A program made the translations under genes and the position numbers. Of a DNA stretch of 34,924 bases, positions 1-30,872 are shown piece after piece. Source of the stretch: a virus (Duplodnaviria > Heunggongvirae > Uroviricota > Caudoviricetes); IMG/VR virus record IMGVR_UViG_2896589216_000002. The stretch is one strand, 5' to 3'. Positions within the stretch are counted from its first letter, which is position 1; every line of letters starts with the position of its first letter. The notes under the pieces were generated by a model that saw nothing but the letters and a program-made list of their open reading frames with translations, was not told the DNA's origin and did not search any database.

Positions 1-381
1 ATGCAGAAAAATGTGAATCCCGGCAGGCGAAAAGGCTGCCCTAATTATCCTCCCGAATTTAAACAGCAGCTCGTTGCTGCCTCCTGTGAACCCGGGATAT
101 CCATCTCAAAACTTGCTCTTGAAAATGGCATTAACGCCAATCTGTTGTTCAAATGGCGACAACAATGGCGCGAGGGAAAGCTGCTATTACCTTCTTCAGA
201 GAGCCCCCAGCTACTTCCTGTGACTCTCGATGCAGCTGCCGAACAGCCAGAATCGCTCGCAGAGGATCCGGAAACCCTCAGTATCAGCTGTGAGGTAACG
301 TTCCGGCACGGGACGCTCCGCTTTAATGGCAATGTCAGCGAAAAGCTCCTGACTCTGCTGATACAGGAACTGAAGCGATGA
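1..381 (+). CDS. tnpA: IS66-family accessory protein TnpA (OrfA), first ~7 codons cut by window edge
   Basis: Identical to the 133-aa ORFs at 19886-20287 and 28328-28729 (which start MGTKVSDMQKNVN). Confidence 0.85.
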   Translation: MQKNVNPGRRKGCPNYPPEFKQQLVAASCEPGISISKLALENGINANLLFKWRQQWREGKLLLPSSESPQLLPVTLDAAAEQPESLAEDPETLSISCEVTFRHGTLRFNGNVSEKLLTLLIQELKR

Positions 382-725
382 TCCCGTTACCTTCCGGGAC
401 CAAAATTTGGCTGGTTGCCGGTATCACCGATATGAGAAATGGCTTCAACGGCCTGGCGGCAAAGGTGCAGACGACGCTGAAAGACGATCCGATGTCAGGT
501 CACGTTTTTATCTTCCGTGGGCGTAATGGCAGTCAGGTAAAGCTCCTCTGGTCTACCGGCGATGGACTGTGTCTGCTGACCAAACGGCTGGAGCGCGGCC
601 GCTTCGCCTGGCCGTCAGCCCGGGATGGCAAAGTGTTCCTCACACCGGCACAGCTGGCGATGCTCCTTGAAGGTATCGACTGGCGGCAGCCTAAAAGACT
701 GCTTACGTCCCTGACTATGTTGTAA
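378..725 (+). CDS. tnpB: IS66-family TnpB (OrfB), 115 aa
   Basis: ATGA overlap with tnpA; conserved IS66 OrfB-type sequence; three identical copies in window. Confidence 0.85.
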   Translation: MIPLPSGTKIWLVAGITDMRNGFNGLAAKVQTTLKDDPMSGHVFIFRGRNGSQVKLLWSTGDGLCLLTKRLERGRFAWPSARDGKVFLTPAQLAMLLEGIDWRQPKRLLTSLTML

Positions 726-773
726 GCCTCTTTATCCTGGTCGACGCTGAATGAGCCTGGTAATATACCCGGT

Positions 774-2312
774 ATGAGCAGCTCACTTCCTGACGATATC
801 AATGCACTGAAACGTCTCCTTGCCGAACAGGAGGCGCTGAACCGTGCCCTGCTGGAAAAGCTGAACGAGCGTGAACGCGAAATAGACCATCTGCAGGCAC
901 AGCTGGATAAGCTGCGCCGGATGAACTTCGGCAGCCGCTCCGAAAAAGTCTCCCGTCGTATCGCACAGATGGAAGCTGACCTGAAGGCACTTCAGAAAGA
1001 AAGTGATACCCTTACCGGTCGGGTTGACGACCCGGCCGTGCAGCGCCCGCTGCGTCAAACCCGCACCCGCAAACCGTTCCCCGAATCACTCCCCCGCGAT
1101 GAAAAACGGCTGCTGCCGGCAGCGTCATGCTGCCCGGAATGTGGAGGCTCACTGAGCTATCCGGGTGAGGATGCCGCCGAACAGCTGGAGTTGATGCGCA
1201 GCGTCTTCCGGGTTATCCGGACTGTACGTGAAAAGCATGCCTGTACTCAGTGCGATGCCATCGTGCAGGCCCCCGCGCCTTCACGGCCCATCGAGCGGGG
1301 TATCGCAGGACCGGGGCTGCTGGCCCGCGTGCTGATCTCAAAGTATGCAGAGCACACCCCGCTGTACCGCCAGTCTGAAATGTACGGCCGCCAGGGCGTG
1401 GAGCTGAGTCGTTCACTGCTGTCGGGCTGGGTGGATGCATGCTGCCGGCTACTGTCACCGCTGGAAGAAGCGCTTCAGGACTATGTGCTGACTGACGGTA
1501 AGCTCCATGCTGATGACACGCCTGTCCCGGTGCTGTTGCCAGGCAATAAGAAAACGAAGACCGGGCGGTTATGGACCTACGTTCGTGACGACCGTAACGC
1601 CGGGTCAACGCTGGCGCCGGCGGTGTGGTTCGCTTACAGCCCGGACAGAAAAGGCATCCATCCGCAGACCCATCTTGCGGGGTTCAGTGGTGTACTGCAG
1701 GCGGATGCATACGCCGGGTTCAACGAGCTGTACCGGGATGGCCGGATAACGGAAGCCGCCTGTTGGGCTCACGCCCGCCGTAAAATCCACGATGTGCACG
1801 TTCGCACCCCGTCAGCCCTGACGGAGGAAGCGCTGAAACGGATCGGCGAACTGTACGCCATCGAGGCAGAGATAAGGGGAATGACGGCGGAGCAGCGCCT
1901 TGCCGAACGTCAGTTGAAAACGAAACCGCTGCTGAAATCCCTGGAAAGCTGGCTGCGTGAAAAGATGAAAACCCTGTCGCGACACTCAGAACTGGCGAAA
2001 GCGTTCGCATACGCCCTGAACCAGTGGCCGGCGCTGACGTACTATGCAGATGATGGCTGGGCTGAGGCGGACAATAACATCGCTGAAAATGCGTTGCGGA
2101 TGGTCAGTCTGGGCCGCAAAAACTACCTGTTCTTCGGTTCGGATCATGGAGGAGAGCGGGGAGCGCTGCTGTACAGCCTGATCGGGACGTGCAAACTGAA
2201 CGGAGTGGAGCCAGAAAGCTACCTCCGCTATGTCCTTGACGTCATAGCCGACTGGCCGATAAACCGGGTCGGCGAACTGCTCCCCTGGCGCGTAGCACTG
2301 CCGACTGAATAA
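774..2312 (+). CDS. tnpC: IS66-family transposase TnpC, 512 aa
   Basis: Long ORF with Cys-rich zinc-finger-like region (CCPECG...CTQC); identical to copy 3. Confidence 0.9.
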
Positions 2313-2345
2313 CACATCCCCGTCAATACGGTTCTTGCTGCACGC

Positions 2346-2705
2346 TTACGATTTTGCCAGCATGACTACCGGGGACAGGCGGCCCAGTGAGTCGGGACCA
2401 GCATTCCAGATACGACCGTTCCATTCAAACGTGAACGGCTTCGCCTCCTGTTCTGCGCGCCATGCTTCAATTTCCTGACGTCTGGCCTCTCTGGCCGCTT
2501 CCTGCATTTCTGGTGTCACAGTGAATGGGGCTATCTCACCCCATTTGCCGCTTTGCAGTTCCTGCCAGATTTGCTGACCCGTCGGAGCGACATCATCAGC
2601 GGTGGCTGTGTAGGGGACTGCCTGGTCCCTGTCGTCAAAAAAAACGTCACAGTCTACTGCGCCACTTTCGGTATAACGGGGATTAATGATTTTTTTAGTT
2701 TCCAC
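2346..2705 (-). pseudogene. tail fiber assembly protein (Tfa-like), GTG start at 2705; 3' end abuts IS66 and stop codon lies inside the IS terminus
   Basis: RBS gagga upstream of GTG (VETKKIINPRY...); last sense codon 2349-2351 and stop 2346-2348 straddle the IS66 end. Confidence 0.5.
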
Positions 2706-2715
2706 GGTGCATTCC

Positions 2716-3069
2716 TCACGATGTGCGAATAAAAAGCCCGGGCATTGCGCCAGAGACATGTGCATCCGGCACCCCGGACAGGGCGCAATATGACCCCGGT
2801 AATGAATGCTCTGAACATCCCGTAATGAAAAATTGTGGGGATGCTATATACGTTCCGGTGGGAGTACTGGGCACTGAAATCCCCACCGGTCCCAGTCGTG
2901 AGCCTCTGTATGACTGCCCCCTGACAAGTCTGATGACTTTATCACCGTCAGCTTCTCCCTGGTACGCAGCAATAATCAGCCCGCCAATGTCAGGGGCTCC
3001 CCATCTGTTGCGGACAGAGCTCGCCACGATTCTGTAAATAATATCTTCTGTGGTTATATTTATTTTCAC
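2716..3069 (-). CDS. hypothetical protein, 117 aa, between side tail fiber and tfa
   Basis: ATGA-coupled to upstream fiber ORF; no recognisable family; could be a displaced fiber C-terminal domain. Confidence 0.35.
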   Translation of the reverse strand: MKINITTEDIIYRIVASSVRNRWGAPDIGGLIIAAYQGEADGDKVIRLVRGQSYRGSRLGPVGISVPSTPTGTYIASPQFFITGCSEHSLPGSYCALSGVPDAHVSGAMPGLFIRTS

Positions 3070-4124
3070 CCAGTCAGTCTGGATATGGGCCAGTAGCAGT
3101 AGCGGGTGTGATAAATGGGGCCGTTAATGCCGTAAAAAGTAAGGGATTTGGCTCTGTACCGCGGTTCTGTTGTCTCAGGGCGTGCATCAGTCCACCGGAT
3201 GCTGAGCACCCCTTCAAACCGTGTGTCGGGTATGATGCCCAGGCGGCCAGCAACGGAATACTCACCTGGCAGCGCATTCCTTACCCAGGCCAGGAAATCA
3301 CTCTTAGTGTCAAAACGGATAACATCTTCAGGCAGAAAAGCACACCCAAAGCCGAATGCGCCGGGTATCGCCAGACGGCCTTTTGTCCGGTCGTAAATGT
3401 CGCTCTGTGCTTCCATCGTGGCCGCACTTTTCAGCCCCAGATTATCCCGGGACTTCTGTTGTGCCTTTTCGCCTGCTGCTGCGATTTCTGACAGATGGTT
3501 AGCCATTTTCAGAGTGCCGGTAAGCGCAGCATCAATGTCATTTTTGGCCTGTTCTGCTGCGCGGGCATAACCTGCGGCATCCTGTGCGCTCTGTCCGGCT
3601 GCGGCTGCATTTGCTCCTGTGCTTGTCACATCTTCCGCAGTGGCCTTTCTGTCCTCAGCTGTGACGGTTGCATCCTGTCTGGCATTCTCCGCAAAACGTT
3701 GTGCATCATCACGGGCCGTTGCGGCTGCCGCCACATCCTGCGCCGTCTGCTGTGCGTTTCCGGCTGCGGCCCCGGCGCTCTGCTGCGCCTGCACCACCAT
3801 TTCCTCAAAGCGTTTGACGACATCCGGTTTCAGGTCGCCCTCATCAGGAGCAATCAGAAAGTCATTCAGCGTGCCGGGCTTTGAGTCCTCATATACAGCA
3901 ATGTCGCCAACGTTGTACTCGTTGTGCCAGCCCGGTTTCAGATACACACCATATTTTCCAGTCCGCGCATGGAAACAGTATTCACCATCGTTTCCTGTCA
4001 TCACATCAGCAACAGTGTGCATCACCACTTCCGGGGTGTTTACCCGGGATTTCAGAATAATATGGTATCCGGACATGGGGATACCTGCGCCATCAGTCAG
4101 CGCACCTGATATCACTACAGACAT
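3066..4124 (-). CDS. stf: side tail fiber protein with lambda Stf-like N-terminal domain and Ala/Gln-rich shaft, 352 aa
   Basis: N-terminus (ISGALTDGAG...VYEDSKPGTLNDFL) parallels lambda Stf N-domain (VYEDSQPGTLNDFL). Confidence 0.7.
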   Translation of the reverse strand: MSVVISGALTDGAGIPMSGYHIILKSRVNTPEVVMHTVADVMTGNDGEYCFHARTGKYGVYLKPGWHNEYNVGDIAVYEDSKPGTLNDFLIAPDEGDLKPDVVKRFEEMVVQAQQSAGAAAGNAQQTAQDVAAAATARDDAQRFAENARQDATVTAEDRKATAEDVTSTGANAAAAGQSAQDAAGYARAAEQAKNDIDAALTGTLKMANHLSEIAAAGEKAQQKSRDNLGLKSAATMEAQSDIYDRTKGRLAIPGAFGFGCAFLPEDVIRFDTKSDFLAWVRNALPGEYSVAGRLGIIPDTRFEGVLSIRWTDARPETTEPRYRAKSLTFYGINGPIYHTRYCYWPISRLTG

Positions 4125-4476
4125 AGTTTTTCTCGCGATAAATTAAATCAGGAAGAAATTTCCGGAGAGGCGGGCCATTCAATGGCGTTGTATGAGGTTT
4201 TATCAGTGATGACACTGAAATCCATCGCCTGCAGCGATTTCGCGTAAATGCGGTACGCTTTCAGTTTTTCCCGGTCTTCGTCGCTGATTAGCCCCAGCAG
4301 CAGGTCTTCTTCCCATTCCCCTGTCCGGGCACTGACCTGAGCCAGAAGGGCATCACGCTCATCTTCCGCTTTGAGTCTGTAGTCAAAGACAAATTCATCA
4401 TTGCGGTAAAACCAGTAACCCGGCGCGGTAATGCGGCGGTTGGCGGTAATATCAGGAACTTGGTAATGACTCCAAC

Positions 4477-4980
4477 TTACTGATAGTGTTTTATGTTCAG
4501 ATAATGCCCGATGACCTTGTCATGCAGCTCCACCGATTTTGAGAACGACAGTGACTTCCGTCCCAGCCTTGCCAGATGTTGTCTCAGATTCAGATTATGT
4601 CGCTCAATGCGCTGAGTGTAACGCTTGCTGATAACGTGCAGCTTTCCCTTCAGGCGTGATTCATACAGCGGCCAGCCATCCGTCATCCATACCACGACCT
4701 CAAAGGCCGACAGCAGGCTCAGAAGACGCTCCAGTGTGGCCAGAGTGCGTTCACCGAAGACGTGCGCCACAACCGTCCTCCGTATCCTGTCATACGCGTA
4801 AAACAGCCAGCGCTGACGTGATTTAGCACCGACGTAGCCCCACTGTTCGTCCATTTCAGCGCAGACAATCACATCACTGCCCGGTTGTATGCGCGAGGTT
4901 ACCGACTGCGGCCTGAGTTTTTTAAGTGACGTAAAACCGTGTTGAGGCCAACGCCCATAATGCGTGCACTGGCGCGACAT
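4477..4980 (-). CDS. insB: IS1 InsB
   Basis: Canonical IS1 InsB sequence. Confidence 0.9.
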
Positions 4981-5174
4981 CCGACGCCATTCATGGCCAT
5001 ATCAATGATTTTCTGGTGCGTACCGGGCTGAGAGGCGGTGTAAGTGAACTGTAGTTGCCATGTTTTACGGCAATGAGAGCAGAGATAGCGCTGATGTCCG
5101 GCAGTGCTTTTGCCGTTACGCACCACGCCTTCAGTAGCGGAGCAGGAAGGACATCTGATGGAAATGGAAGCCAC
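4899..5174 (-). CDS. insA: IS1 InsA
   Basis: Canonical 91-aa InsA with CxxC zinc finger. Confidence 0.9.
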
Positions 5175-5472
5175 GCAAGCACCTTAAAATCACCATCATA
5201 CACTAAATCAGTAAGTTGGCAGCATTACCCAGGAACTTCAATAACACTGGCGTTACGGGGTTCAATGCCTGTCACATCCTTACCGACCCACACCACGCGA
5301 CCGTCTCCGGTGTAAGTTATTTTAATTGTGTCGCTGGCGAAATTCTTCAGCTCTTCATACCAGTTTTTTCCGTCTTCCGAAAAAAGCCAGGTGACATCAT
5401 ATTGTTTTGTCAGCTGATATTGTTCCACGGTTTTCGGATTGCCCGCAGTAATATTTTTTAAATGCAACATTG

Positions 5473-6858
5473 TTAAACACTCGCCACGTTATACCAGGTG
5501 CCATTAATCAGTTTCTGAAGCGGGCGGTAATACACGCCGTTGACGTTATCCGCTGAGTCACGGCCGGTATCCGATATCGCTATCCCTGACAGCCCGTGTC
5601 CCGAAGGTGCGCGAAATCTCCACGAAACGGTGTTACTGCCGGGGCTGTAATACATTTCATGGCCATACCGTACATCCTGTACCCCCTCTGTTCGATATTT
5701 ATAGCGGGCATCGAAGTTTCCGTAATTTAACGGAATTACCTGTCCGTTTACGGCGAACGTGATGCTGTTATCTGTATTCCTCTGGCTGAAAAAATGCCAG
5801 CCTGAATCATCGCCAAGCTCTGCAACAACAGACCTGGATGGATTACCCCACAAATAAAACGCTGCATTTTTCGTGGAGTTGTTGGCGCTGGATAACGTGA
5901 ATTTTCTGGCAGTTCCGGCCTGAATATTCTTAAAAGCAATAGCCACTCCATTCTGAAAGCGGAATACACGCTGACTATTAGCATAAACATCCAGAATACC
6001 GTCTCCATTCTGTTTAAATCCGGTGTCATTATCACCAAGAACAATTGAATTCCCCCCCAGGGCGTTCTGAACGCCGATACCCAGCGCACCATTGACCTGC
6101 GAACCACCGCCAACAGACACTTTATGCGACATGGATATTTCACCCGTCCGCAAATTAATGGTGAACGGGCGCAGGGGACCAATATCGCCATTTTCCCCCT
6201 GACCTTCACTGGTGGGAATAAGGTGCAGGCACTCTTCCGAACGACGAAAAATCAGGCCAAAAGCTTCGTTGAAAATCCTCAGCGCATTAACACCACGGAT
6301 TTTCAGCTCTCCGGTTATTTTATCGCCTTCCCGATGAACATAGCGTTGATCTGACTGCTCTTTACTGTAAACCTGAAGATTATCCCGTGCCGTCCCTTTA
6401 TTCTGAAGGTCTGACAGATTGTTCTTCTGCCGCAGGAATATCCTTTTCGGATCCTCAAGAAGATTTACCCAGCCCGCACTGTCGGAGCCTTCAGGATCGG
6501 TCAGGTTATCGTCTGTGGTATTCAGCCAGACCGCTGTTGTTGCGACTCCGGCGAGAATGGCTCCTTTTGCATATCCACCAATGGCCCCCGCAAAACCGGC
6601 ATTATACGTGTACAAACCGCCAGCTTGGGCGAACCGTATTGCTGCGGTAATATCGTACATCAGACCGTTAAAATCCTTGCAGTGTGGCGGTATACCTCCC
6701 GCTGAGACCGCTGTCATGGTCACCGGAGGAAAACCTGAATCATACGCAGCATTACCGCTCTCTCTGGTCTGCTGTGTCGCCTTGTCCGGGATACGGTTTT
6801 TATCTCCGGTACTCGCAAAGGGGACCGCCAGCTGGCGGGGTTTATCACTGGCCTTCAT
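5473..6858 (-). CDS. phage tail fiber protein, 461 aa
   Basis: Sits between baseplate genes and tfa; stop directly abuts tfa start. Confidence 0.6.
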
Positions 6859-7261
6859 TACGGGACTCCTTTAAAACTACTGAAACATAAACACCCGGCG
6901 GGGACGGCAGTGCACCCGACGACTGGATAATCGCCAGTTCTGCCAACGAGAGCGCGGACTCAAAGATGTAACTCATCCTCAGCCCACCATTATTCAGAAC
7001 ATAAGCCCGCCGTTTTTTTCCGAACATAAATCTCAGCATCCGGTTAATATCCGGAACGGAACAGTCAGTAATGTTCGACATGGCTTTCATCAGTATCAGC
7101 CGCCGGTATACAGCATCAGACAGGTCAACAGTCCGGGTATCCGATTTTCCGTTGTAAAACGGTGCCTGATTAGACTGGCCCCCTGAATCTCCAGACAACC
7201 AGTATCACTTAAATAAGTGATAGTCTTAATACTAGTTTTTAGACTAGTCATTGGAGTACAG

Positions 7262-7627
7262 ATGATTGATGTCTTAGGGCCGGAGAAACGCAGACGGCGT
7301 ACCACACAGGAAAAGATCGCAATTGTTCAGCAGAGCTTTGAACCGGGGATGACGGTCTCCCTCGTTGCCCGGCAACATGGTGTAGCAGCCAGCCAGTTAT
7401 TTCTCTGGCGTAAGCAATACCAGGAAGGAAGTCTTACTGCTGTGGCCGCCGGAGAACAGGTTGTTCCTGCCTCTGAACTTGCTGCCGCCATGAAGCAGAT
7501 TAAAGAACTCCAGCGCCTGCTCGGCAAGAAAACGATGGAAAATGAACTCCTCAAAGAAGCCGTTGAATATGGACGGGCAAAAAAGTGGATAGCGCACGCG
7601 CCCTTATTGCCCGGGGATGGGGAGTAA
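7262..7627 (+). CDS. insC: IS2 InsC (OrfA)
   Basis: Starts [16 protein letters not shown] protein. Confidence 0.9.
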
Positions 7628-8490
7628 GCTTAGTCAGCCGTTGTCTCCGGGTGTCGCGTGCGCAGTTGCACGTCATTCTCAGACGAACCGATGACTGGAT
7701 GGATGGCCGCCGCAGTCGTCACACTGATGATACGGATGTGCTTCTCCGTATACACCATGTTATCGGAGAGCTGCCCACGTATGGTTATCGTCGGGTATGG
7801 GCGCTGCTTCGCAGACAGGCAGAACTTGATGGTATGCCTGCGATCAATGCCAAACGTGTTTACCGGATCATGCGCCAGAATGCGCTGTTGCTTGAGCGAA
7901 AACCTGCTGTACCGCCATCGAAACGGGCACATACAGGCAGAGTGGCCGTGAAAGAAAGCAATCAGCGATGGTGCTCTGACGGGTTCGAGTTCTGCTGTGA
8001 TAACGGAGAGAGACTGCGTGTCACGTTCGCGCTGGACTGCTGTGATCGTGAGGCACTGCACTGGGCGGTGACTACCGGCGGCTTCAACAGTGAAACAGTA
8101 CAGGACGTCATGCTGGGAGCGGTGGAACGCCGCTTCGGCAACGATCTTCCGTCGTCTCCAGTGGAGTGGCTGACGGATAATGGTTCATGCTACCGGGCTA
8201 ATGAAACACGCCAGTTCGCCCGGATGTTGGGACTTGAACCGAAGAACACGGCGGTGCGGAGTCCGGAGAGTAACGGAATAGCAGAGAGCTTCGTGAAAAC
8301 GATAAAGCGTGACTACATAAGTATCATGCCCAAACCAGACGGGTTAACGGCAGCAAAGAACCTTGCAGAGGCGTTCGAGCATTATAACGAATGGCATCCG
8401 CATAGTGCGCTGGGTTATCGCTCGCCACGGGAATATCTGCGGCAGCGGGCTTGTAATGGGTTAAGTGATAACAGATGTCTGGAAATATAG
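7585..8490 (+). CDS. insD: IS2 InsD (OrfB transposase)
   Basis: 301-aa DDE ORF overlapping insC in -1 frame. Confidence 0.9.
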
Positions 8491-8787
8491 GGGCAAATCC
8501 ACTGATTAAACGGACAGGGATCATCCATTACCGGGGTGTCCATCCTGGACTCGCTGAAGCCCAGGTAATTAAAATCGTCCTTTACCGTCAGCCGGCGACT
8601 GACACCCACAATCTTTCCCCAGACATCAAGACCATACTTTTCTGCGGTATCGATGTTCCAGATAAGACCATAAAAATCACTGATAAAACTGTCGGGGGAA
8701 AGCGCTGCGTTAAAGCTGTTAATGAGGGCATTGAGTCGGGGGCTGGCAGCATACTGCGCAAGCACAGTGGCAGCCACATTCTGCACG

Positions 8788-10025
8788 TTATGCCTCCTGG
8801 AGTTTCACACTGATATCCGACACATCCAGAACCGGAATCTCATCTATCCCGAAAGTGACAGCCGTTGTCCATGACGAACCGTCACGGCTCACAGTAAGGC
8901 CCAGAATATCAATATGTTCCGGATCGGTTTTGTAAATGCCGGCATAGTAGCGCCCGGCAGAGACAACAGAGGCAACCCTTGCCCGCAGACCACCATCTGT
9001 ACCATTAAATGCGTCCAGCACGGATTGCTGTACCTGTCGGGTAATATCTGAAGGCAGGTAGTCACTTTTTTTCAGCGTCACACTGACATGCAGACTGACG
9101 GGTTTGAGTGTCTGCCAGCTGATTACGTATTCAGGATACGGCGGATCGTACTCCTTATCTGCAACAGTGAACGTTGTGTTGCCATTCATATCAATACCCG
9201 GCGGAGCCTTACGCCAGATGGCCGCCGCGATATCTGCCGGGCTGCCGCCGTACACGCCAACATAAAGCGAACCGGGTGTTAATGGATACTGACTGACTCC
9301 GGCTTTTTGTTCTGTTTTTTTCGGATTATGGGGGACGTAAACATCCACCACGTTTTCTACCGTGGAGAGTATTTCACCCCGGATGGCTTCCAGAATATTC
9401 CGGGCATTACGGGCAACTGAATTACGTCGGCGGTTTTCAAAGTCCGCACGGGTTTCCTCATCGCTGCCCGGCACACCGGCACGGGCGTTAGTGACACCTG
9501 ACCAGCCAGGTATTGCCTTATAAATTTTATTCAGCGTCCCCACAGGACAGCCGACGGGGCCGGTGGACAAATTCAGAAATACCGCATCAACCTGCCCTGA
9601 TGCGCCGATAGTGACGTCTGACTGACATACTTATAACCGGCCTCATCCTGCCCCATACTGCCCGCCGGGATCAGCGTGCCAACCAGCCCGGTACAGGTCG
9701 CTGTTACTGTCGTACCTGTGGCCCCACGGCGCTCCAGGAAATAAATCCTGCCTATTGCATCCTGAAAGCGACCACTGGAAAAGTCAGGGTTGATCTGGTT
9801 AACGATATACAGCAACTGATCGTTTTTATCCGCAATAATGGCGCTTTCGCTGGATGCAAGTTGTCCCTGCGGACTGCTCAGACTGGTACTCATGGCCCCG
9901 CCCAGCGCCGCCGAAAAATCAGCAAGCCTGCCGCTCAGAATATCCGCTTCATCCGGCACATTCAGCCCGCTATCCGAAATCTGTACAGCGGGCACTGCGG
10001 TAGAAAAAGATTTATTTTCACTCAT
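8788..10025 (-). pseudogene. baseplate J-like protein split by an apparent 1-nt frameshift near 9615-9635
   Basis: 150-aa N-terminal ORF (9573-10025) and 260-aa ORF (8788-9570); the second frame reads ...SDVTIGASGQVDAVFLN... straight after the first stops. Confidence 0.6.
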
Positions 10026-10378
10026 AGCAGTACCGTAAAAATGTCATTATTGGTATCTGTAATACGCAGCACACCTGTTACTGTCCGGGTTTGATCAGCT
10101 GTGACCTGGCAGACAGCGGCGCTCACGGTCGGCAGTTTAAGTGCTTCCTGTTGCAGAGTGGCATTCACCAGTTGTGTGCCGGGCCAGTGTCCGAGGATGC
10201 GTGGCCAGTAAGGTATGCCAGCCGTTGAGTCGTACCAGCACTCCCCCAGAAAAGTACTGCACGCACACGCCACATCCTGAGCTACCGCATGGGGATTATC
10301 AGTAATGGCAAGATTTCCGGTATCATCAAGCAGGATATCCCATGTCCCGGTGTCAAGAAGAAGTGATCGTGACTGCAT
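10022..10378 (-). CDS. baseplate wedge protein (gpW / gp25-like), 118 aa
   Basis: Size and position between V-like and J-like genes. Confidence 0.5.
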   Translation of the reverse strand: MQSRSLLLDTGTWDILLDDTGNLAITDNPHAVAQDVACACSTFLGECWYDSTAGIPYWPRILGHWPGTQLVNATLQQEALKLPTVSAAVCQVTADQTRTVTGVLRITDTNNDIFTVLL

Positions 10379-10390
10379 GTTTTCTCCTGT

Positions 10391-11068
10391 TTACCGGGAT
10401 CCCTGCGTGGTTGAGCCGCCGGACTCAACGCCGCCGTGAACGTGGTTTCCAAAATCAATACCCCCGATGTTCGAACCGCCGGAAAGCCTGGACTGCCCGG
10501 TAACGTCAAGCCCCTTACTGACGGCGGTATCGCCGTTCAGCGCAATTTGTGGTGAGTTAACGGTGAAGCTTTTCGGCGCATTAATCACCCCCTCAGGCGC
10601 GGATATCTCCACTTTCCAGGGAGATACAATCCGTATCTGGTTGTCATCAAATACCACAAACTGGACGGGATCACCGTTGAGCACGCCACCCAGCCAGATG
10701 GCATCAGCATAATTATGGGTACGCTTTGATCCCGGCATCGCAGCCTGACGCGTGGCTTTTACCGCACTGATATCCCGATCGCAGATGGCAAGAAAACCGA
10801 TATCCCCCACATGTGGCGGGATAATCACCGCATTACCGCCCCCCTGTAGTCGCCATACGGGAATGTTATAAATCACCTCATGTTCAACCGGGGAACCGTC
10901 TGCTGCAACGCCCATTACCATCGGTCGGGCCTCAATAAATCCCTCTTCCACGGCTACCACCCGTCCCAGAGTGATAAACGCATGACGTCCGAGAAACTGC
11001 CGCAGCATAAAGTCCTGTGCATTGATTTCGCTGTTCACGTCTGTCGGGTTACTGAGTGGTTGTGCCAT
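10391..11068 (-). CDS. baseplate spike / assembly protein V-like (Mu gp45-like), 225 aa
   Basis: C-terminal GNHVHGG motif; position upstream of W/J. Confidence 0.6.
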   Translation of the reverse strand: MAQPLSNPTDVNSEINAQDFMLRQFLGRHAFITLGRVVAVEEGFIEARPMVMGVAADGSPVEHEVIYNIPVWRLQGGGNAVIIPPHVGDIGFLAICDRDISAVKATRQAAMPGSKRTHNYADAIWLGGVLNGDPVQFVVFDDNQIRIVSPWKVEISAPEGVINAPKSFTVNSPQIALNGDTAVSKGLDVTGQSRLSGGSNIGGIDFGNHVHGGVESGGSTTQGSR

Positions 11069-11918
11069 TTTCTTCAGCCCTCATCATGGTACAGTTGGAA
11101 CTCCACGGACCGCCCACGGTTCGCGAAGTAATGGTGTGTATCACCCCTGTGATCGTATAATCGCCCGTCATATCAGGCAGTGACGATTCCAGATGCGCTG
11201 GCCTGCCAGTAAAGAGATCGGGGCAGAATATCGTGGTGGCGCTGAGTCCGGTCATGGTGTAAACCGGATAGCCAGTCAGTCCGTGATCCGGCGAAATCAG
11301 TACCGGCGGAATATTCCGGTTCTGCCCTTTCGGCCAGATGGTGACTTTCTCCACATTCCCCAGATCAATGTTAATATCGGCGGCTGAAGCGACATCCAGC
11401 ATTTGTTGTACAACATTACCGGAAAAATGCGGGTCAGACAGACTGCGGCTGACCCCCTGGTTTTCAAATCCAAGCCCGACAGTTGACGCCAGCGCACGGA
11501 TAATATCTGCAACCGCAACATCGCCCTTTGCGCTGAAATCTGCCGCCGGCTGATTACGCAGATTAAAATGAATCTGTCCTGTCAGAATGAGCGGAATATC
11601 CGGCGCCTGGTTGTAGTCGGCGTATGCATCAGTAATATCACCTTCAAAAATAAGCCGCCCGTCGGCCCACAGCCGCATTTTATTTGCGGTACTCTGCTCC
11701 TGTCGCCACACACCGCGCCAGCTTAAATTCGTCATATGCGCCGGTGACATTCCCCAGATATACAGCGTGATTTGTGTACCAGCCACCCCTCCATATACGG
11801 CAATACTGGCAAAACAGCTTGCGTCGGTAATGGTCAGCATATTGCCCTGGCCATTACCAAACGTTCGTCCGTCTGAAAGAGTGAACTCCACCGTTATTTT
11901 ACGTTGTCTGTAGCTCAT
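11049..11918 (-). CDS. phage tail protein, possible baseplate hub, 289 aa
   Basis: Position between tape measure and baseplate genes. Confidence 0.4.
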
Positions 11919-12217
11919 ATCAGTTCCTCAGGTAACAGCCAGTAGAGCCGGTACCGGGATCCGAGCCCCCGCCAGTCAGGGTCACTATTCCCCTCCGTGT
12001 CGGTAAAAAACAGATCCCCCTGAAACGGCAGGTATCCGTACCGGACAATCCGGTTATTATTCAGACACAGCACGCCATACAGGCACGGTTCACCATTAAC
12101 AATGATATCGATATACATCCCCGTAGTACGCTGATTCAGGCGAATGGTGCAGACCTGAGCGCCCAGTGTCACCGTAAACTGCTGGGCTTTAACGGGAGAT
12201 AAAACAATTTCCAGCAT
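11915..12217 (-). CDS. phage tail protein, 100 aa
   Basis: Translationally coupled within tail operon. Confidence 0.35.
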
Positions 12218-12927
12218 CAGGTGATCCCCCTGTTCGTGGCGCTTCGTCTGTCAGCGTCTGACGGTTGTGTCTCCGACGCCGTAACTGGCTGCGTTTTAAC
12301 CGATGCGGCCCCTTTTGCTTTATCGTTGTCCGTGGGAGACGACTTATCCGTACTTCCCACTGACACCTCTCCTGTATTCATTACGGTCTGAAATACCGCA
12401 GTAACCGTCAGTAAGGTCGGACCATTATTACTTCGCATTCGGTAGTCATATTTCACAAGGTCGCAGGATGTCCATGTCTTGTCCGGCGTCTCAATATCGT
12501 AGAGTCCTGCCGTGGTACGCATCCTTTCAAGCGTTTCCAGCACATTCGTCCGCGAGGTGGTGGAAAAATTTGTCAGGTTCGGGACGGATCCGGAAAAGGC
12601 CGTCCACCCCTCTACAGTGAAAGTCACATGCAGTTCCGGCGATCTCTGGATTTTATTAAAGGTGGTATAAGCCCCCTGCTCCACGGGGACGGTGGAAACA
12701 GAAGCCTCCGCGCCCACCTCAACGACAACAAAAGAATCCGGGGAGAAAGGTTTGCCACCCTTCTGATGGGCACCTGCCGGATCATTCCGTGCGTAATAAA
12801 TACCGAATGACGGTGCCAGTACACTATTAATGAGTCCCAGGACACAGCCGCCACGAACTGCACTCAGTACGTTACTTTCACTGAGCGAAAAGTTATTCAG
12901 GGAAATATTATCGAAAGAAAAACTCAT
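12217..12927 (-). CDS. phage tail protein, 236 aa, directly downstream of tape measure
   Basis: Operon position; overlapping stop/start. Confidence 0.4.
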
Positions 12928-14944
12928 CCTGTTACCCCGCTGGAATAAACCGACACAAGCGCCGAATTCGTGATACGCCGACGTGCGTCATCGGTAATAC
13001 CCTTCACATTGTCCGACGTTGTGGTGACATTCAGTGTCCCGATATGCGTGGTTTCCGTTACGGTGGACTGCGATACAGGCGCAGGATGGAGCGACCGTAT
13101 GGCCATTGCCGCACCCGGATAAGGCAGGTTCGCCAGCACCCGCGGAATATAGTTGCGGGTCTCCTCCGGAGCAGCAGCCAGTCCCTTACGCTGAACATTT
13201 CCCTCTCCACAGTTATATGCCGCCAGAGCCTTAGCCAGATCGCCATGAAAAAAACGTATCAGGCCACCAAGTTTTCTCGCGGCGGCATCAGCGGCTTTTT
13301 CGGGATCAAAGGCATCGTTCCCCCTCAGACCAAATTCACTGGCCGTCTTCGGCATGAACTGAAACAGTCCCATCGCACCAGCAGGTGAGACGGCAAACTG
13401 ATTACCACGGGATTCGGTGATCGCAACGCTGCGCAGCAGTCCGGGCGGCAGGTTATATTTTTCCTCCAGTTGAGACAGTTTCGGTTGCAGCCAGCCTAAC
13501 AGGGCTTCCCCGGTCTTCGTCGGTCGCTGGCGGTTTTGCATGGCATTACCGAGTTTTTCCTGCGTCGCACGCATACCCTGTAGCCAGGATTCACCGAAGG
13601 CTGCTTCCCTCCCGGTTGCCTGAGAAGCCTGAGTATCCAGCATGCCCTGCTGCCATACTGTGGGTGATTGTGCCCGGGTGATGTTGCCAGGCTTTTCTCC
13701 GGCATCCAGTTTTGTCTGATACGTCTCCATCTCTTTCTTATTGAAAAAGAAAGTCCCGTCTGAAGCCCAGAAAAAACCATGTGAATCCAGCCAGTCCTTA
13801 TTTTCCCTGCCAACAATGGATGTCAGTAATCCGTCAACAACCGGGTAAAGCGCCGTTATCGCAAAAAGAAGGCCTCCGGGGCCACTGAGGGCTTTTGTCA
13901 GCCCCCGCACCCATGACGCCACTTTCAGCCCGATCAGCGTAATAATGACATTCTGCCAGCCCCCCAGTTCTCCGGCAGCCTTATTCGCTAGGGAGGCCAC
14001 TGACTCAACGTCATTCAGAAATGTGGTGATAAACCTGTTCACTTCCTCCGGATGTTGCTGCATCCAGTCACCGAGTGTCTCCAGCCAGTGGCTGAGCTTC
14101 AGCGCGTACGGCATCAACGCGGTGCTAATCGTCATCCCGATGCCGGACCAGGTCTGATCGAGCTCAACAAGCTCTTTTCGTAGCTTACGGGCCAGCGCTG
14201 TACGCCCCGGCGTAACCTGCGAACGGGAAGTAAATTCGTCCACATCTTTCAGCGCATGACCGGAGCCAAGAAACTGCTGTCCGGCATAACTGAAGCCCAG
14301 CGCGTTGCCGTAGGCAGTTTGTTCGGACTTTGTCAGTCGCGGAAAAATAACCGCCAGCTTGCGCATGATGGCTTCAGTGCTGTCAGTATTTAAATCAACA
14401 CTAATGCCCGCCCTGGCTGCAACCTGAAACAAATCCTGTAACACAGGATCAAAGGACCTTCCGGCTCTGAAGGCCGCTTTTGCATTTGCAAGCCGGGAAA
14501 ATGCCCCAGACATTTCCCCTTCATCAACATTATTTGCCCGCGCAGCCCGTAACCATCCGTCCAGATTTCTGGCCTTCATGCCAAAAGCATCGGATTCCAC
14601 GGACAGACGGTTCAGATCACGGGCAAAACCTGTTACCAGGTTCTTCAGCCCCCCAGCGTCAGACTGACACCCGCAAGAGCCAGAATCTCGCTACGGATTC
14701 CTGAAAAAAAACGGGACGCCCGTTTCCCGGCATCTTCCATTCGACGGGCCGTTTTATCAGCATCTTTTCCGGTTTTTTCCAGTGATTCACTGGTTTTCTT
14801 CTGTCCCTGACTGAATGTGTCAGCGACACCTTCCATCACCGTCGTGAGCCGGTTAAGGGCAGCATGTACTGCCTGTTCCCCGGCAGTAAAGTCCCTGTCA
14901 TCAATCCCGAGGGACAGAACAAGCTCATCAAGTACCTGCGCCAT
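12924..14944 (-). CDS. tail tape measure protein with C-terminal lytic transglycosylase (SLT) domain; N-terminal 99 aa and main 558 aa separated by a frameshift in a C6 tract
   Basis: SLT motif (ITESRGNQFAVSPAGAMGLFQFMP...AYNCGEGNV); adding one G to the run at 14649-14654 fuses the frames as ...SLTLGGLKNLVTGFARDLNRLSVESDAF... Confidence 0.7.
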
Positions 14945-15180
14945 TTCTGTTCTCCTGTATCACCTGTTCGTTATGGGCATCCACATGAATTATTTCCAGC
15001 AGATCCCATAAGTCCTGCACACCAAGGACAGAATCCAGTTCAGCTTTTGAAGCCTTACCGGAGGAGATAACGGTCGCAATGGTACGGGGAACATTAACGT
15101 AATCCACCACCCCGAACGGTCTGTCGGGGTCGAGATAACGCGGGGGATATCTAGCTGACGACGGTAGCGAAAAAATCCAC
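14928..15180 (-). CDS. candidate frameshift extension of tail chaperone (+1 frame relative to 15151-15555)
   Basis: Protein-like +1 frame (...PRYLDPDRPFGVVDYVNVPRTIATVISSGKASKAELDSVLGVQDLWDLLEIIHVD...) opens at the T6C run and ends overlapping the tape measure start. Confidence 0.4.
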
Positions 15181-15555
15181 ATGCAGCTTAAAGACCTCCG
15201 CACGCAGATTAAGACGGGTAATGATTTCTTCAATATCCTCTTCAACAAGCGGTCTCCGGATGCTGCGTTTTTTCGGATCGGGAACAAACTGCACACAGTC
15301 CATCATTTCATCCATCAACGGACGCGCCTCATCAGGCGGAATTTTCGATAATGCTTTCAGCCCTTCAAGGGCAAGCGCAGCCATCCCCAGACTACGAACA
15401 TCATCCGGTAACTCCACGCCACCACGCCCCATTGCCATAATGGCACGCATCGCCCACCATTCCGCCTGTGAGGCAGACATTTCGGTAAGATGAAATACCT
15501 TGCCCTTATCCCGTCCCTGACCTTCAATAGTGATAAATTTCTCTTTACGGGCCAT
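15151..15555 (-). CDS. tail assembly chaperone, 134 aa
   Basis: Directly upstream of tape measure; ends at slippery run GAT TTT TTC. Confidence 0.5.
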   Translation of the reverse strand: MARKEKFITIEGQGRDKGKVFHLTEMSASQAEWWAMRAIMAMGRGGVELPDDVRSLGMAALALEGLKALSKIPPDEARPLMDEMMDCVQFVPDPKKRSIRRPLVEEDIEEIITRLNLRAEVFKLHVDFFATVVS

Positions 15556-15893
15556 CAGTTAAAAACCTCCGGAGTAATGGTTTCCCACTCAATAACCGCC
15601 TGCCCTGGCTGCAACGTACGAGCTGCATCAGGCAGCGCTTTCCATTGTTTGAGTACGCCATTCACGCAGGTATATTTACGGCCAATCGCCGGAAGCAGGA
15701 CGACAGCGTTACAACGGAATACAGCCCGACTGGCCCGGATGTGGTTGACCAGGTATCAAAAATATCCCGGCTGGGGGAATCCGGCATGATATGAAACGTC
15801 TGGATAATGTTGCTGTACACAAATCCCGCGGACAGTTTGGTAATGCTGCCAACTTACTGATTTAGTGTATGATGGTGATTTTAAGGTGCTTGC

Positions 15894-16169
15894 GTGGCTT
15901 CCATTTCCATCAGATGTCCTTCCTGCTCCGCTACTGAAGGCGTGGTGCGTAACGGCAAAAGCACTGCCGGACATCAGCGCTATCTCTGCTCTCATTGCCG
16001 TAAAACATGGCAACTACAGTTCACTTACACCGCCTCTCAGCCCGGTACGCACCAGAAAATCATTGATATGGCCATGAATGGCGTCGGATGTCGCGCCAGT
16101 GCACGCATTATGGGCGTTGACCTCAACACGGTTTTCCGTCACTTAAAAAACTCAGGCCGCAGTCGGTAA
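15894..16169 (+). CDS. insA: IS1 InsA
   Basis: 91-aa InsA. Confidence 0.9.
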
Positions 16170-16195
16170 CCTCGCGCATACAACCGGGCAGTGAT

Positions 16196-16591
16196 GTGAT
16201 TGTCTGCGCTGAAATGGACGAACAGTGGGGCTACGTCGGTGCTAAATCACGTCAGCGCTGGCTGTTTTACGCGTATGACAGGATACGGAGGACGGTTGTG
16301 GCGCACGTCTTCGGTGAACGCACTCTGGCCACACTGGAGCGTCTTCTGAGCCTGCTGTCGGCCTTTGAGGTCGTGGTATGGATGACGGATGGCTGGCCGC
16401 TGTATGAATCACGCCTGAAGGGAAAGCTGCACGTTATCAGCAAGCGTTACACTCAGCGCATTGAGCGACATAATCTGAATCTGAGACAACATCTGGCAAG
16501 GCTGGGACGGAAGTCACTGTCGTTCTCAAAATCGGTGGAGCTGCATGACAAGGTCATCGGGCATTATCTGAACATAAAACACTATCAGTAA
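16196..16591 (+). CDS. insB: IS1 InsB
   Basis: InsB frame. Confidence 0.9.
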
Positions 16592-17955
16592 GTTGGAGTC
16601 ATTACCGACAGTTTACCGTCAATACCGCGGGCAGTTTCCGCCAGTACCAGTGGATCGGTGCCATAAACGTTATCTGTTGCAAATCCCTGAAGTCGTACGC
16701 CGGAGGGATACAGATTATTCACTGTCAGCGTGATAATGGCATCCGCCGCAGTGATGGTGTTGTTGTTACCCGACATTTACTGGACCTCCGTGGATGCAAT
16801 AACAAGTTTCTGGATACTACCGCCGTCACAGTACCAGAGCGTACAGGACGGACTGCTACGGGTTGCCCGCAAAGAGGGAAGCATATCGCCGATATACAGG
16901 TAATAGCCGGTGGCAAACAACGTTGAAGAAACATCTGCCTCCACAACATTGTTAATCTGTTTCTTCTGCGCCTCCGTCAGTGTCACCCCTTCACGGATCC
17001 CTCCCAGCGTTTGTACTGCTGGATAACGTCACTCATTGACGCTGCAACCAGCGCCCGCCCTTCATTGTTGTAGGGGACCGTCTGGTTTGACTTGAATAAT
17101 GCGATCACCGCCCCTGCAAACTGGCATTCAGCCAGATTTGCCCGCAGAAACTGTCCAGCCATTTAAAATCACCGGTAATAGTGCCATCCGCCCAGTAATC
17201 TTCCACCACACTGTTTTCCGCATATTTTCCGTAGAAATTGTAACCTGCGGCGATCAGCGCATCATAATCGCTGCCACTGGTAACATCAGCGGCCAGCCCC
17301 TCATACTCGCGGAACTTGAATGATACACGCCCCTCTGGTCGGATAAAATCAAGGCACGCTGCATACCCCAGTACCGCTGCAGCCCGGTTACCATCAGTCG
17401 CGAAAACAGGTACAACAGAGCTGTAGTTATTGACAGCAATTATCTGGTAAGCGATGTGTTCAGTACTGCCTTTTACTCTGGCGTTGCCGCTGGTTGTCCA
17501 TGCCACATAAAAGTAACGCTTGCCCTGCCCGTTTGCCCATGCAGAAAACGCCAGGTGTTGCTCGTCAGTGACCTCAGATACCGTGGAAAAACCCGCCCAT
17601 TGCTGGGAAGCGGCCTTAATGGCTGCCATTGTGTCAGGGACATCAGATACAGGCGCGCCCCGGGATATCACCGCACCGGTGTTACTGGTCATCTTCAGGA
17701 GTTCTGCTGCCGATCCACTGCCGAACGTTATCGTGGTACTCCCGGGTTTCGCCCCGGCGACAGTAATGACAAAAGCATTCTGTGTGGTATCGAATACCAC
17801 TGTAGCCACTGCTGCGGTCAGCGCTGTCTGTAGTGCCGTTGCAGCAGCGGCGAAGCTGGCGACACCGTTAAAATTCACTTCAATGCTGACGCTTTTCCCG
17901 TTAATACTCAGCATCAGCGTAAGCGTGCAGCAAGAACCGTATTGACGGGGATGTG

Positions 17956-19493: not shown

Positions 19494-19541
19494 ACCGGGT
19501 ATATTACCAGGCTCATTCAGCGTCGACCAGGATAAAGAGGC

Positions 19542-19889
19542 TTACAACATAGTCAGGGACGTAAGCAGTCTTTTAGGCTGCCGCCAGTCGATACCTTCAA
19601 GGAGCATCGCCAGCTGTGCCGGTGTGAGGAACACTTTGCCATCCCGGGCTGACGGCCAGGCGAAGCGGCCGCGCTCCAGCCGTTTGGTCAGCAGACACAG
19701 TCCATCGCCGGTAGACCAGAGGAGCTTTACCTGACTGCCATTACGCCCACGGAAGATAAAAACGTGACCTGACATCGGATCGTCTTTCAGCGTCGTCTGC
19801 ACCTTTGCCGCCAGGCCGTTGAAGCCATTTCTCATATCGGTGATACCGGCAACCAGCCAAATTTTGGTCCCGGAAGGTAACGGGATCAT
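19542..19889 (-). CDS. tnpB: IS66 TnpB (copy 2)
   Basis: Identical to copies 1 and 3. Confidence 0.85.
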   Translation of the reverse strand: MIPLPSGTKIWLVAGITDMRNGFNGLAAKVQTTLKDDPMSGHVFIFRGRNGSQVKLLWSTGDGLCLLTKRLERGRFAWPSARDGKVFLTPAQLAMLLEGIDWRQPKRLLTSLTML

Positions 19890-24593: not shown

Positions 24594-25894
<1,301 letters not shown>

Positions 25895-26359: not shown

Positions 26360-26396
26360 GTAAGCGTGCAGCAAGAACCGTATTGACGGGGATGTG

Positions 26397-30866: not shown

Positions 30867-30872
30867 AGGTGC

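What the first reader, a model, noticed from the sequence alone, without database searches (positions are those of the whole stretch)
6845..8786. IS2 insertion in a baseplate-adjacent gene with 5-bp duplication ctgat
Exact 1331-bp IS2 with ctgat on both sides; the flanking ORF pieces fuse in frame after excision (...VMDDPCPFNQAPFYNGKSDTRT...).
Basis: seen in the sequence. Interest (0 to 1): 0.45.

Follow-up and report, generated by a model that had tools for sequence, protein, structure and literature searches.

The report
IS2 splits a prophage baseplate gene
An ordinary, intact copy of the insertion sequence IS2 has jumped into a baseplate wedge gene of a dead, IS-riddled prophage in Shigella dysenteriae; this is routine genome decay and nothing new.

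Summary
A 1331-bp IS2 lies at window 7171-8501 (+ strand), flanked by the direct repeat CTGAT (7166-7170 and 8502-8506). It splits a minus-strand gene that spans 8786..6845.

- **Repair:** removing the IS and one repeat copy restores a stop-free 606-bp, 201-aa ORF. It matches Pfam PF11041 (DUF2612, now named Phage_Wedge1) over its full length, E 2.7e-65.
- **Homologues:** full-length relatives occur in 231 phage records. A weaker sequence match reaches a solved baseplate wedge protein (PDB 7kh1 gp17).
- **Empty site:** seven enteroinvasive-type E. coli genomes carry the uninterrupted gene with a single CTGAT, 99.3-99.5% identical and two amino acids different. This proves a real transposition.
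- **Source:** window 1-18786 is 100% identical to Shigella dysenteriae 14 ATCC 49346 (CP026832). At least seven assemblies show the same insertion.

The IS differs from K-12 IS2A at six bases, although its proteins are identical. The target is a baseplate wedge subunit itself, not a baseplate-adjacent gene.

The surrounding prophage carries other lesions: a baseplate J frameshift and insertions of IS1, IS66-family and IS3-family elements. Verdict: already known kind, low interest.

The parts
7171..8501 (+). Complete IS2 insertion sequence (1331 bp)
   Evidence: 99.9% identical to annotated E. coli IS2 copies. Six mismatches against K-12 IS2A over 1331 ungapped positions, with identical termini.
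7171..7212 (+). IS2 left imperfect inverted repeat (IRL, 42 bp by the published definition), beginning TAGACTGG
   Evidence: Inverted repeat I1 spans 7180-7212 and 8461-8493. Ends compared. The 42/41-bp IRL/IRR definition is from PMC3299598.
8461..8501 (+). IS2 right imperfect inverted repeat (IRR, 41 bp), ending GCAAATCCA
   Evidence: definition from PMC3299598.
7262..7627 (+). IS2 orfA (insC; 121 aa; repressor and N-terminal part of the transposase)
   Evidence: NCBIfam NF006928 'IS2 repressor TnpA', 276 bits against a cut-off of 229, positions 1-121/121. Pfam HTH_Tnp_1. Amino-acid sequence identical to K-12 InsC1.
7579..7585 (+). A6G slippery site for the programmed -1 frameshift that yields the OrfAB transposase
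   Evidence: Sequence GGGCAAAAAAGTGG read. Role of the A6G window from PMC3299598. RefSeq annotates identical copies with 'programmed frameshift'.
7585..8490 (+). IS2 orfB (insD; 301 aa; DDE catalytic domain)
   Evidence: NCBIfam NF006918 'IS2 transposase TnpB', 727.6 bits against a cut-off of 597, positions 1-301/301. Pfam rve, rve_3 and HTH_21. Identical to K-12 InsD1.
7166..7170 (.). Target-site duplication, left copy (CTGAT)
   Evidence: The empty site in L009 holds a single CTGAT.
8502..8506 (.). Target-site duplication, right copy (CTGAT)
8502..8786 (-). 5' part of the interrupted DUF2612/Phage_Wedge1 baseplate wedge gene. It holds codons 1-95 with a GTG start at 8786. As an ORF it reads on into IS2 IRR to 8415, giving 123 aa of which 28 are IS-encoded.
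   Evidence: The start matches the RefSeq annotation of the orthologue WP_046880340.1. Pfam Phage_Wedge1 is recorded on this fragment.
6845..7170 (-). 3' part of the same gene, from codon 96 to the stop at 6845-6847. The left CTGAT copy at 7166-7170 is the redundant duplicate. The end overlaps the tail-fibre gene start by 14 bp.
   Evidence: Pfam Phage_Wedge1 is recorded on the corresponding fragment in L002 and L004.
8788..10025 (-). Context: upstream baseplate J/gp47-like gene, itself a pseudogene through a 4-bp deletion near 9618
   Evidence: PHROG 6 baseplate wedge subunit on both halves. Frameshift against the intact 413-aa orthologue.
5473..6858 (-). Context: downstream tail-fibre gene (461 aa)
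   Evidence: PHROG 6859 and 454 tail fiber protein.

Best explanation
An intact IS2 (IS3 family) inserted into codon 95/96 (AAT CAG | GCA, motif NQ|APFY) of a 201-aa DUF2612/Phage_Wedge1 gene. That gene lies in the late tail operon of a myovirus-type prophage in the Shigella dysenteriae chromosome. IS2 moves by the copy-out/paste-in route of its family. The OrfAB transposase, made by a -1 frameshift at A6G, forms a figure-of-eight and then a minicircle. The abutted ends of the minicircle attack the target with a 5-bp stagger, and repair of that stagger leaves the CTGAT duplication. The IS is transcribed opposite to the phage gene. The insertion splits the gene into a 95-residue N-terminal stub fused to 28 IS-encoded residues and a promoterless C-terminal piece, so no wedge protein can be made. 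By analogy with phage E217 (two gp44 plus one gp45 per triplex, with the tail fibre gp46 attached to a gp45 loop), the lost protein would be the third subunit of the wedge triplex, built with two baseplate J copies, and the anchor for the tail fibre encoded just downstream. Its loss would prevent baseplate assembly and fibre attachment. The event is one of many inactivating lesions in this prophage remnant and is best read as neutral decay during the Shigella IS expansion. Shown here: the element's identity and integrity, the duplication, the ancestral empty site, the family of the repaired protein, and sharing of the insertion among strains. Inferred: the transposition pathway (taken from IS2 literature), the wedge and fibre-anchor role (from homologues), and neutrality.
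For: - **IS2 identity and integrity:**
- **Duplication and empty site:** a single CTGAT in seven E. coli genomes, aligned in one 1065-bp piece at 99.3-99.5%.
- **Repaired ORF:** 606 bp, no stops, two amino-acid differences from WP_046880340.1.
- **Family of the repaired protein:** Pfam PF11041 at E 2.7e-65 over positions 2-180/181; phrog_587 structural protein at E 2.2e-76; PDB 7kh1 gp17 'baseplate wedge protein' at E 1.9e-7 over residues 8-184, 9zd7 gp89 at E 1.6e-7, and weak matches (E 0.17) to E217 gp45 'triplex'.
- **Gene order:** sheath initiator, baseplate J, DUF2612, tail fibre, the same order as E217 gp44-gp45-gp46 (PMC10329688).
- **Later secondary events on the same insertion:** a 56-bp adjacent deletion in L004/L005 and a nested IS2 in L003.
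- **Other lesions in the same prophage:**
- **IS2 mechanism:** PMC3299598.
Against: Nothing contradicts the insertion itself. Several points remain open. The order of the inactivating events is unknown, so the IS2 hit could have been either the first lesion or a late, irrelevant one. No expression data exist for the two fragments. The wedge and fibre-anchor role rests on homology of 20-30% identity to solved structures and on a weak (E 0.17) match to E217 gp45. Some single-base deletions counted as extra lesions may be long-read homopolymer errors, because other assemblies (L002-L004) have the intact 673-aa transglycosylase gene.
Confidence: 0.96

Rival explanations
1. Assembly artefact: a repeated IS2 was placed wrongly in this gene by the assembler, and the real chromosome has an intact gene.
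For: IS2 is multicopy in these genomes, up to 41 places per E. coli genome. Such repeats are a known source of misassembly.
Against: Both junctions, each with the 5-bp duplication, recur base for base in L002-L007, and the IRR junction also on the short contig L008; the loci include closed chromosomes and an NCTC assembly. Derived variants exist: an adjacent deletion and a nested IS2. A misplaced repeat would not create a precise target duplication.
Confidence: 0.01
2. The two flanks were joined by homologous recombination between two separate IS2 copies (an inversion or deletion end-point), so the gene pieces were not split by one insertion.
For: The window is full of repeated IS copies that have clearly rearranged the prophage. 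Examples are three copies of one IS66-family element and loss of the head genes beyond 22963.
Against: The flanks are contiguous in the empty-site genomes and carry the same 5 bp on both sides. Recombination between independent copies would give unrelated flanks with different duplications.
Confidence: 0.01
3. The insertion is functional rather than neutral. Either IS2 supplies outward transcription that changes expression of the downstream tail-fibre genes, or the 123-aa N-terminal fusion protein is made and interferes with baseplate assembly of related superinfecting phages. In either case selection would have fixed the insertion.
For: The insertion is retained in every strain found that carries this copy of the prophage. 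The N-terminal ORF keeps its native start, coupled to the upstream gene. IS2 is known from the older literature (my own knowledge) to affect neighbouring gene expression in an orientation-dependent way.
Against: The upstream J gene is frameshifted, and the sheath, tube and fibre-assembly genes carry IS insertions, so there is no functional module left to regulate. Late phage operons are silent in a lysogen. Two relatives have deleted 56 bp of the C-terminal piece, and one has put a second IS2 into the first, without any sign of constraint. Sharing among strains is explained by common descent.
Confidence: 0.03

Closest known systems
IS2 of Escherichia coli K-12 (IS2A, insC1/insD1; IS3 family, IS2 group)
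   Same: Same length (1331 bp) and identical termini. OrfA and OrfB amino-acid sequences are identical. It has the A6G frameshift window and a 5-bp target duplication; the K-12 copy in yaiX is flanked by ATTAC on both sides.
   Different: Six base substitutions, all silent or non-coding. The host is Shigella dysenteriae and the insertion site differs.
IS2 insertions in the orthologous ipaH-associated prophages of enteroinvasive-type E. coli VL40
   Same: The same prophage family and the same tail gene block. An IS2 that is 99.9% identical has independently entered the tail-fibre gene (duplication TTTTG). Another has entered the baseplate J gene of a second related prophage.
   Different: The target genes and duplications differ. 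In VL40 the DUF2612 gene is intact (WP_490182035.1).
DUF2612/Phage_Wedge1 baseplate wedge proteins: PDB 7kh1 gp17, PDB 9zd7 gp89, Pseudomonas phage K8 GP075, and the N-terminal region of E217 triplex subunit gp45
   Same: The repaired protein is a full-length PF11041 member. It aligns with 7kh1 gp17 over residues 8-184. It sits between the baseplate J-like gene and the tail-fibre gene, as gp45 does in E217. K8 GP075 is a DUF2612 virion protein that interacts with baseplate and fibre proteins.
   Different: Identity to the solved proteins is only about 20-30%. At 201 aa it is far shorter than E217 gp45 (504 aa), and that match is weak (E 0.17). No structure or virion data exist for this prophage.
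P2 gpI / Mu gp48 type wedge proteins
   Same: The same position in the operon, after the J-like gene and before the fibre gene, and presumably the same architectural role.
   Different: No sequence-level membership. DUF2612 was the only Pfam family reported for the repaired protein at E <= 0.01.

Membership tests
IS2 (IS3 family) | Element of about 1331 bp bounded by imperfect 42/41-bp inverted repeats with the IS2 termini (TAGACTGG... and ...GCAAATCCA) | tested here: met
   7171-8501 is 1331 bp. The termini are identical to those of K-12 IS2A and the inverted repeat was detected. Definition from PMC3299598.
IS2 (IS3 family) | Two overlapping ORFs (orfA, orfB) joined by a programmed -1 frameshift at A6G, with a DDE (rve) catalytic domain in orfB | tested here: met
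   orfA 7262-7627, orfB 7585-8490, AAAAAAG at 7579-7585. Pfam HTH_Tnp_1 and rve/rve_3. NCBIfam IS2 TnpA and TnpB above cut-off.
IS2 (IS3 family) | Near-identity to the reference element. My understanding of ISfinder practice is that the same name needs more than 95% DNA identity. | tested here: met
   99.55% identical to K-12 IS2A with identical proteins. 99.9% identical to RefSeq-annotated IS2 copies.
IS2 (IS3 family) | 5-bp target-site duplication | tested here: met
   CTGAT on both sides and single in the empty site. Other IS2 copies seen here also have 5-bp duplications: ATTAC, TTTTG and CGTGA.
IS2 (IS3 family) | Transposition activity (minicircle formation) | not testable with these tools
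   Sequence integrity suggests competence. A nested second IS2 in L003 shows that IS2 has been active in this lineage.
Pfam PF11041 DUF2612 / Phage_Wedge1 | Score above the Pfam gathering threshold over the whole domain | tested here: met
   220.2 bits against a cut-off of 23.5, E 2.7e-65, profile positions 2-180/181, on the repaired 201-aa protein. Both fragments are labelled PF11041 in the precomputed hits.
Pfam PF11041 DUF2612 / Phage_Wedge1 | Gene located in a contractile-tail baseplate block, between the baseplate J-like gene and the tail-fibre gene | tested here: met
   The window order is spike, sheath initiator, J, DUF2612, fibre. Intact relatives show the same order.
Pfam PF11041 DUF2612 / Phage_Wedge1 | Homology to an experimentally located baseplate wedge subunit | tested here: met
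   phmmer against the PDB: 7kh1 gp17 'baseplate wedge protein' at E 1.9e-7 over residues 8-184, and 9zd7 gp89 at E 1.6e-7.
Pfam PF11041 DUF2612 / Phage_Wedge1 | Protein physically present in the baseplate of this phage | not testable with these tools
   The prophage is defective and no virions are expected.
P2 gpI tail protein family | Significant match to the P2 gpI profile | tested here: not met
   The Pfam scan at E <= 0.01 returned only PF11041 for the repaired protein.

The most novel reading that the evidence does not exclude
The baseplate J, wedge and tail-fibre block of this ipaH-associated prophage family may be a preferred IS2 target, or inactivation of it may be repeatedly selected, for example to immobilise prophages that carry useful cargo. 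At least three independent IS2 insertions were seen in that few-kb block: the DUF2612 gene here, the tail-fibre gene in one VL40 prophage, and the baseplate J gene in a second VL40 prophage.
Probability: 0.06. Interest if true: 0.3.

Novelty: already known. Interest (0 to 1): 0.08.

Why it matters
It matters little beyond bookkeeping. The result shows that this locus is a pseudogene made by a standard IS2 transposition in a prophage remnant of Shigella dysenteriae. This is one instance of the well-documented IS-driven genome decay of Shigella. Practical uses are modest:
- The junction is a stable lineage marker shared by several assemblies.
- The repaired 201-aa sequence can be annotated as a DUF2612/Phage_Wedge1 baseplate wedge protein.
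- The locus should be annotated as a pseudogene rather than as two small hypothetical ORFs.

Tried and rejected
- **In-frame stop in baseplate J:** I first read the split J gene (150 + 260 aa) as an in-frame nonsense codon. Alignment with the intact orthologue shows a 4-bp deletion and a frameshift instead.
- **P2 gpI membership:** not supported, since there is no Pfam hit.
- **NCBIfam model for the repaired protein:** none exists.
- **Occupied site in complete E. coli genomes:** searched with the unrepaired 2.4-kb region. Only VL40 covered it, and there the IS2 lies in a different gene (tail fibre), so no E. coli genome in that collection shares this insertion.
- **Misassembly and IS-IS recombination:** both rejected on the empty-site and duplication evidence.
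- **Steps not run:** I did not run structure prediction or the large protein-database searches. Family membership, solved-structure homologues and the empty site already settle the question, and those shared resources were not justified.
- **Species of other assemblies:** a paper search for the accession numbers identified only CP026832. I did not determine the species of the other assemblies that carry the insertion.
Full report
**1. What is in the sequence**

Reading 6500-9100 and checking by script shows a 1331-bp element at 7171-8501. It begins TAGACTGGCCCC and ends GGGGCAAATCCA. The pentamer CTGAT sits immediately outside both ends, at 7166-7170 and 8502-8506.

The repeat finder reports the terminal imperfect inverted repeat at 7180-7212 and 8461-8493. 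Inside the element, on the + strand, are two ORFs:
- a 121-aa ORF at 7262-7627;
- an overlapping 301-aa ORF at 7585-8490.

The sequence AAAAAAG at 7579-7585 lies in the overlap.

**2. Identity of the element**

- **Pfam:** HTH_Tnp_1 in the first ORF; rve, rve_3 and HTH_21 in the second.
- **NCBIfam:** 'IS2 repressor TnpA' at 276 bits (cut-off 229) and 'IS2 transposase TnpB' at 727.6 bits (cut-off 597), both over their full length.
- **Megablast:** matches in 4846 of 5426 complete E. coli genomes, the best at 99.9% and annotated 'IS3-like element IS2 family transposase'.
- **K-12 comparison:** against IS2A (NC_000913.3 381260-382590) the element aligns without gaps, with six substitutions. None changes OrfA or OrfB.

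So 'exact IS2' is correct for length, ends and proteins, but not for every base. The element looks fully intact. The published IS2 description (42- and 41-bp IRL/IRR, orfA/orfB, A6G -1 frameshift, figure-of-eight then minicircle then insertion) is in PMC3299598.

**3. The target gene and the in-silico excision**

On the minus strand, a GTG at 8786 opens an ORF that runs into the IS. It has 95 native codons followed by 28 IS-encoded codons and stops at 8415. A second piece runs from the other IS end to the stop at 6845-6847.

Removing 7171-8506 (the IS plus one CTGAT) gives a 606-bp ORF of 201 codons with no stop. The junction reads ...DPCPFNQ|APFYNGK.... The insertion lies between codons 95 and 96, in AAT CAG | GCA.

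**4. Proof that this is a real transposition**

The repaired 1065-bp stretch (6600-7170 plus 8507-9000) aligns as one piece at 98.7-99.5% to seven complete E. coli genomes; six of them are at 99.3-99.5%. There the gene is annotated as an intact 'DUF2612 domain-containing protein', flanked by 'baseplate J/gp47 family protein' and 'phage tail fiber protein'.

In RMDEC364 (L009 20246-20851, WP_046880340.1) the site reads GTAAAACGGTGCCTGATTAAACGGACAGGG, with a single CTGAT. The protein differs from the repaired one at two residues, V104D and T111S. This excludes chance, misassembly and IS-IS recombination as explanations.

**5. What the repaired protein is**

- **Families:** Pfam PF11041 (DUF2612) at E 2.7e-65 and 220 bits against a cut-off of 23.5, covering profile positions 2-180 of 181. 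The newer Pfam name, seen in the precomputed annotations, is Phage_Wedge1. PHROG 587 'structural protein' at E 2.2e-76.
- **Phage homologues:** tblastn against phage genomes gives 238 records, 231 of them covering at least 80% of the protein. The nearest are Pantoea phage PA-1 (59%) and temperate Klebsiella phages (54%).
- **Solved structures:** 7kh1 gp17 'baseplate wedge protein' at E 1.9e-7 over residues 8-184, 9zd7 gp89 at E 1.6e-7, and weak matches (E 0.17) to E217 gp45 'Triplex gp45' and to 9b45 'gp46 Baseplate wedge 2'.

The neighbouring genes have E217- and Pam3-type Pfam families: E217_gp31_N sheath, E217_Gp32, Pam3_gp18, E217_GP41 hub and Sheath_initiator.

In E217 the baseplate 'nut' is made of six triplexes, each with two gp44 and one gp45. 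The tail fibre gp46, encoded next, attaches to a gp45 loop at residues 76-123 (PMC10329688). The window has the same order: J-like (413 aa when intact), DUF2612, tail fibre.

I therefore infer that the disrupted protein is the third wedge-triplex subunit and the fibre anchor. A DUF2612 protein of Pseudomonas phage K8 (GP075) is a virion protein that interacts with baseplate and fibre proteins (PMC9887876).

The repaired protein is not a P2 gpI member by sequence.

**6. Where the window comes from and how widespread the insertion is**

The 123-aa fusion ORF is found exactly on 10 contigs read by the look-up, of which seven places are shown. Window 1-18786 is 100% identical to L007, which is CP026832.1. 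ShigaPass identifies that record as Shigella dysenteriae 14 ATCC 49346 (PMC10132075).

- L002-L007 have the same IRR junction, and L002, L003, L006 and L007 also have the same IRL junction. On the short contig L008 only the IRR junction is visible.
- L004 and L005 lack 56 bp directly abutting IRL (window 7115-7170, including the left CTGAT). This is an IS2-adjacent deletion.
- L003 (CP026807) carries a second IS2 nested in the first, with its own 5-bp duplication CGTGA.

The insertion therefore predates the divergence of these strains, and IS2 stayed active afterwards. No complete E. coli genome in the collection shares the insertion.

**7. Context: a thoroughly degraded prophage**

Compared with RMDEC364, the window shows these further lesions:
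- a 4-bp deletion in the baseplate J gene, giving a frameshift at about codon 137; the same split gene calls appear in all relatives;
- IS1 at 4462-5229 (9-bp duplication) in the tail-fibre-assembly gene;
- IS1 at 15839-16606 in the tube gene;
- an IS66-family element at 17919-20358 (8-bp duplication) in the sheath gene, with further copies at 1-2350 and 26360-28803;
- IS3-family copies at 24594-25858 and 33021-34216;
- loss of most head genes beyond 22963.

Several single-base deletions may be real or may be long-read errors, since some relatives have the intact transglycosylase gene.

In the E. coli relatives this prophage family carries ipaH effector genes next to the fibre genes. In the window that end is replaced by an IS66-family element next to zitB-pnuC-nadA.

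**8. Mechanism and consequence**

The best explanation is a single copy-out/paste-in IS2 insertion with a 5-bp staggered target cut. The IS is oriented opposite to the phage late operon. It abolishes the wedge protein and is probably polar on the fibre genes. In a prophage with so many other lesions the event is most simply neutral decay.

The rivals are a misassembly, an IS-IS recombination joint, or a selected regulatory or dominant-negative role. The first two are excluded by the empty-site evidence. The third is unsupported.

**9. Novelty**

IS2, its 5-bp duplication, DUF2612/Phage_Wedge1 proteins and IS-driven pseudogenisation in Shigella are all known, and RefSeq-style annotation already labels the parts. 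The only mildly notable point is that IS2 has hit the same tail block independently in related prophages of E. coli VL40: the tail-fibre gene and a baseplate J gene. That could reflect target preference or just relaxed selection, and I did not test it statistically. Interest is low.

Noticed in passing
window 8788-10025 (-), deletion near 9618: The baseplate J/gp47-like gene is a pseudogene. A 4-bp deletion relative to E. coli RMDEC364 shifts the frame at about codon 137 and splits it into ORFs of 150 and 260 aa. The same split appears in all related assemblies.
   Followed up: yes
window 4462-5229: A 768-bp IS1 with a 9-bp target duplication (CAGGAACTT) interrupts the tail-fibre-assembly gene. 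It is present in L003 and L007 but absent from L002 and L004-L006, so it is younger than the IS2 insertion.
   Followed up: partly
window 15839-16606 and 17919-20358: A second IS1 (8-bp duplication GACAGTTT) lies in the tail tube gene. A 2.44-kb IS66-family element (8-bp duplication GCATCAGC) lies in the sheath (DUF3383/E217_gp31_N) gene.
   Followed up: partly
window 1-2350, 17919-20358, 26360-28803: Three near-identical copies (more than 99.7%) of the same IS66-family element (tnpA, tnpB and a 512-aa transposase). The first abuts the chromosomal zitB-pnuC-nadA side in the matching genome and probably marks a deletion of the prophage end that carries ipaH in E. coli relatives.
   Followed up: partly
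window 24594-25858 (-) and 33021-34216 (+); 34208-34924: Two inverted copies of an IS3-family element (112-aa orfA plus a 276/299-aa orfB), an integrase fragment at 25806-26246, and a divergent IS1-like copy (91% to the other IS1s) at the window end. Repressor-like and Rha/Ash-like regulatory genes lie at 30077-32101.
   Followed up: no
window ~14649, 15142, 15737, 17003, 17111: Single-base deletions (all C or G) relative to the E. coli reference split the transglycosylase/tape-measure-like gene and others. Some relatives (L002-L004) have the intact 673-aa gene, so these may be either real mutations or long-read homopolymer errors.
   Followed up: partly
L004 and L005, position corresponding to window 7115-7170: A 56-bp deletion ending exactly at the IS2 IRL removes the left copy of the target duplication. 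This is the signature of an IS2-mediated adjacent deletion.
   Followed up: yes
L003 (CP026807), around 10472-11813 of the locus: A second complete IS2 is nested inside orfB of the first, in the same orientation, with its own 5-bp duplication CGTGA.
   Followed up: yes
L001 6001-7331 and L012 about 5190-6520 (E. coli VL40): Independent IS2 insertions in the tail-fibre gene of the orthologous ipaHb-carrying prophage (duplication TTTTG) and in the baseplate J gene of a second related prophage. IS2 has hit this tail block repeatedly.
   Followed up: partly
window 5230-6320: The tail-fibre gene is only 93% identical to the E. coli reference over 5230-6053 and has no match over about 6054-6320, while its neighbours are more than 99% identical. 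The fibre gene looks mosaic and exchanged.
   Followed up: no
window 7166-7170 and 8502-8506 (protein residues 95-100): The insertion point NQ|APFY aligns with the APWYSVG motif of PDB 9zd7 gp89. That motif is duplicated in host-range mutants of Pseudomonas phage K8 GP075. The point also falls, on a weak alignment, in the stretch matching the fibre-attachment-loop region of E217 gp45. This is probably coincidental.
   Followed up: partly
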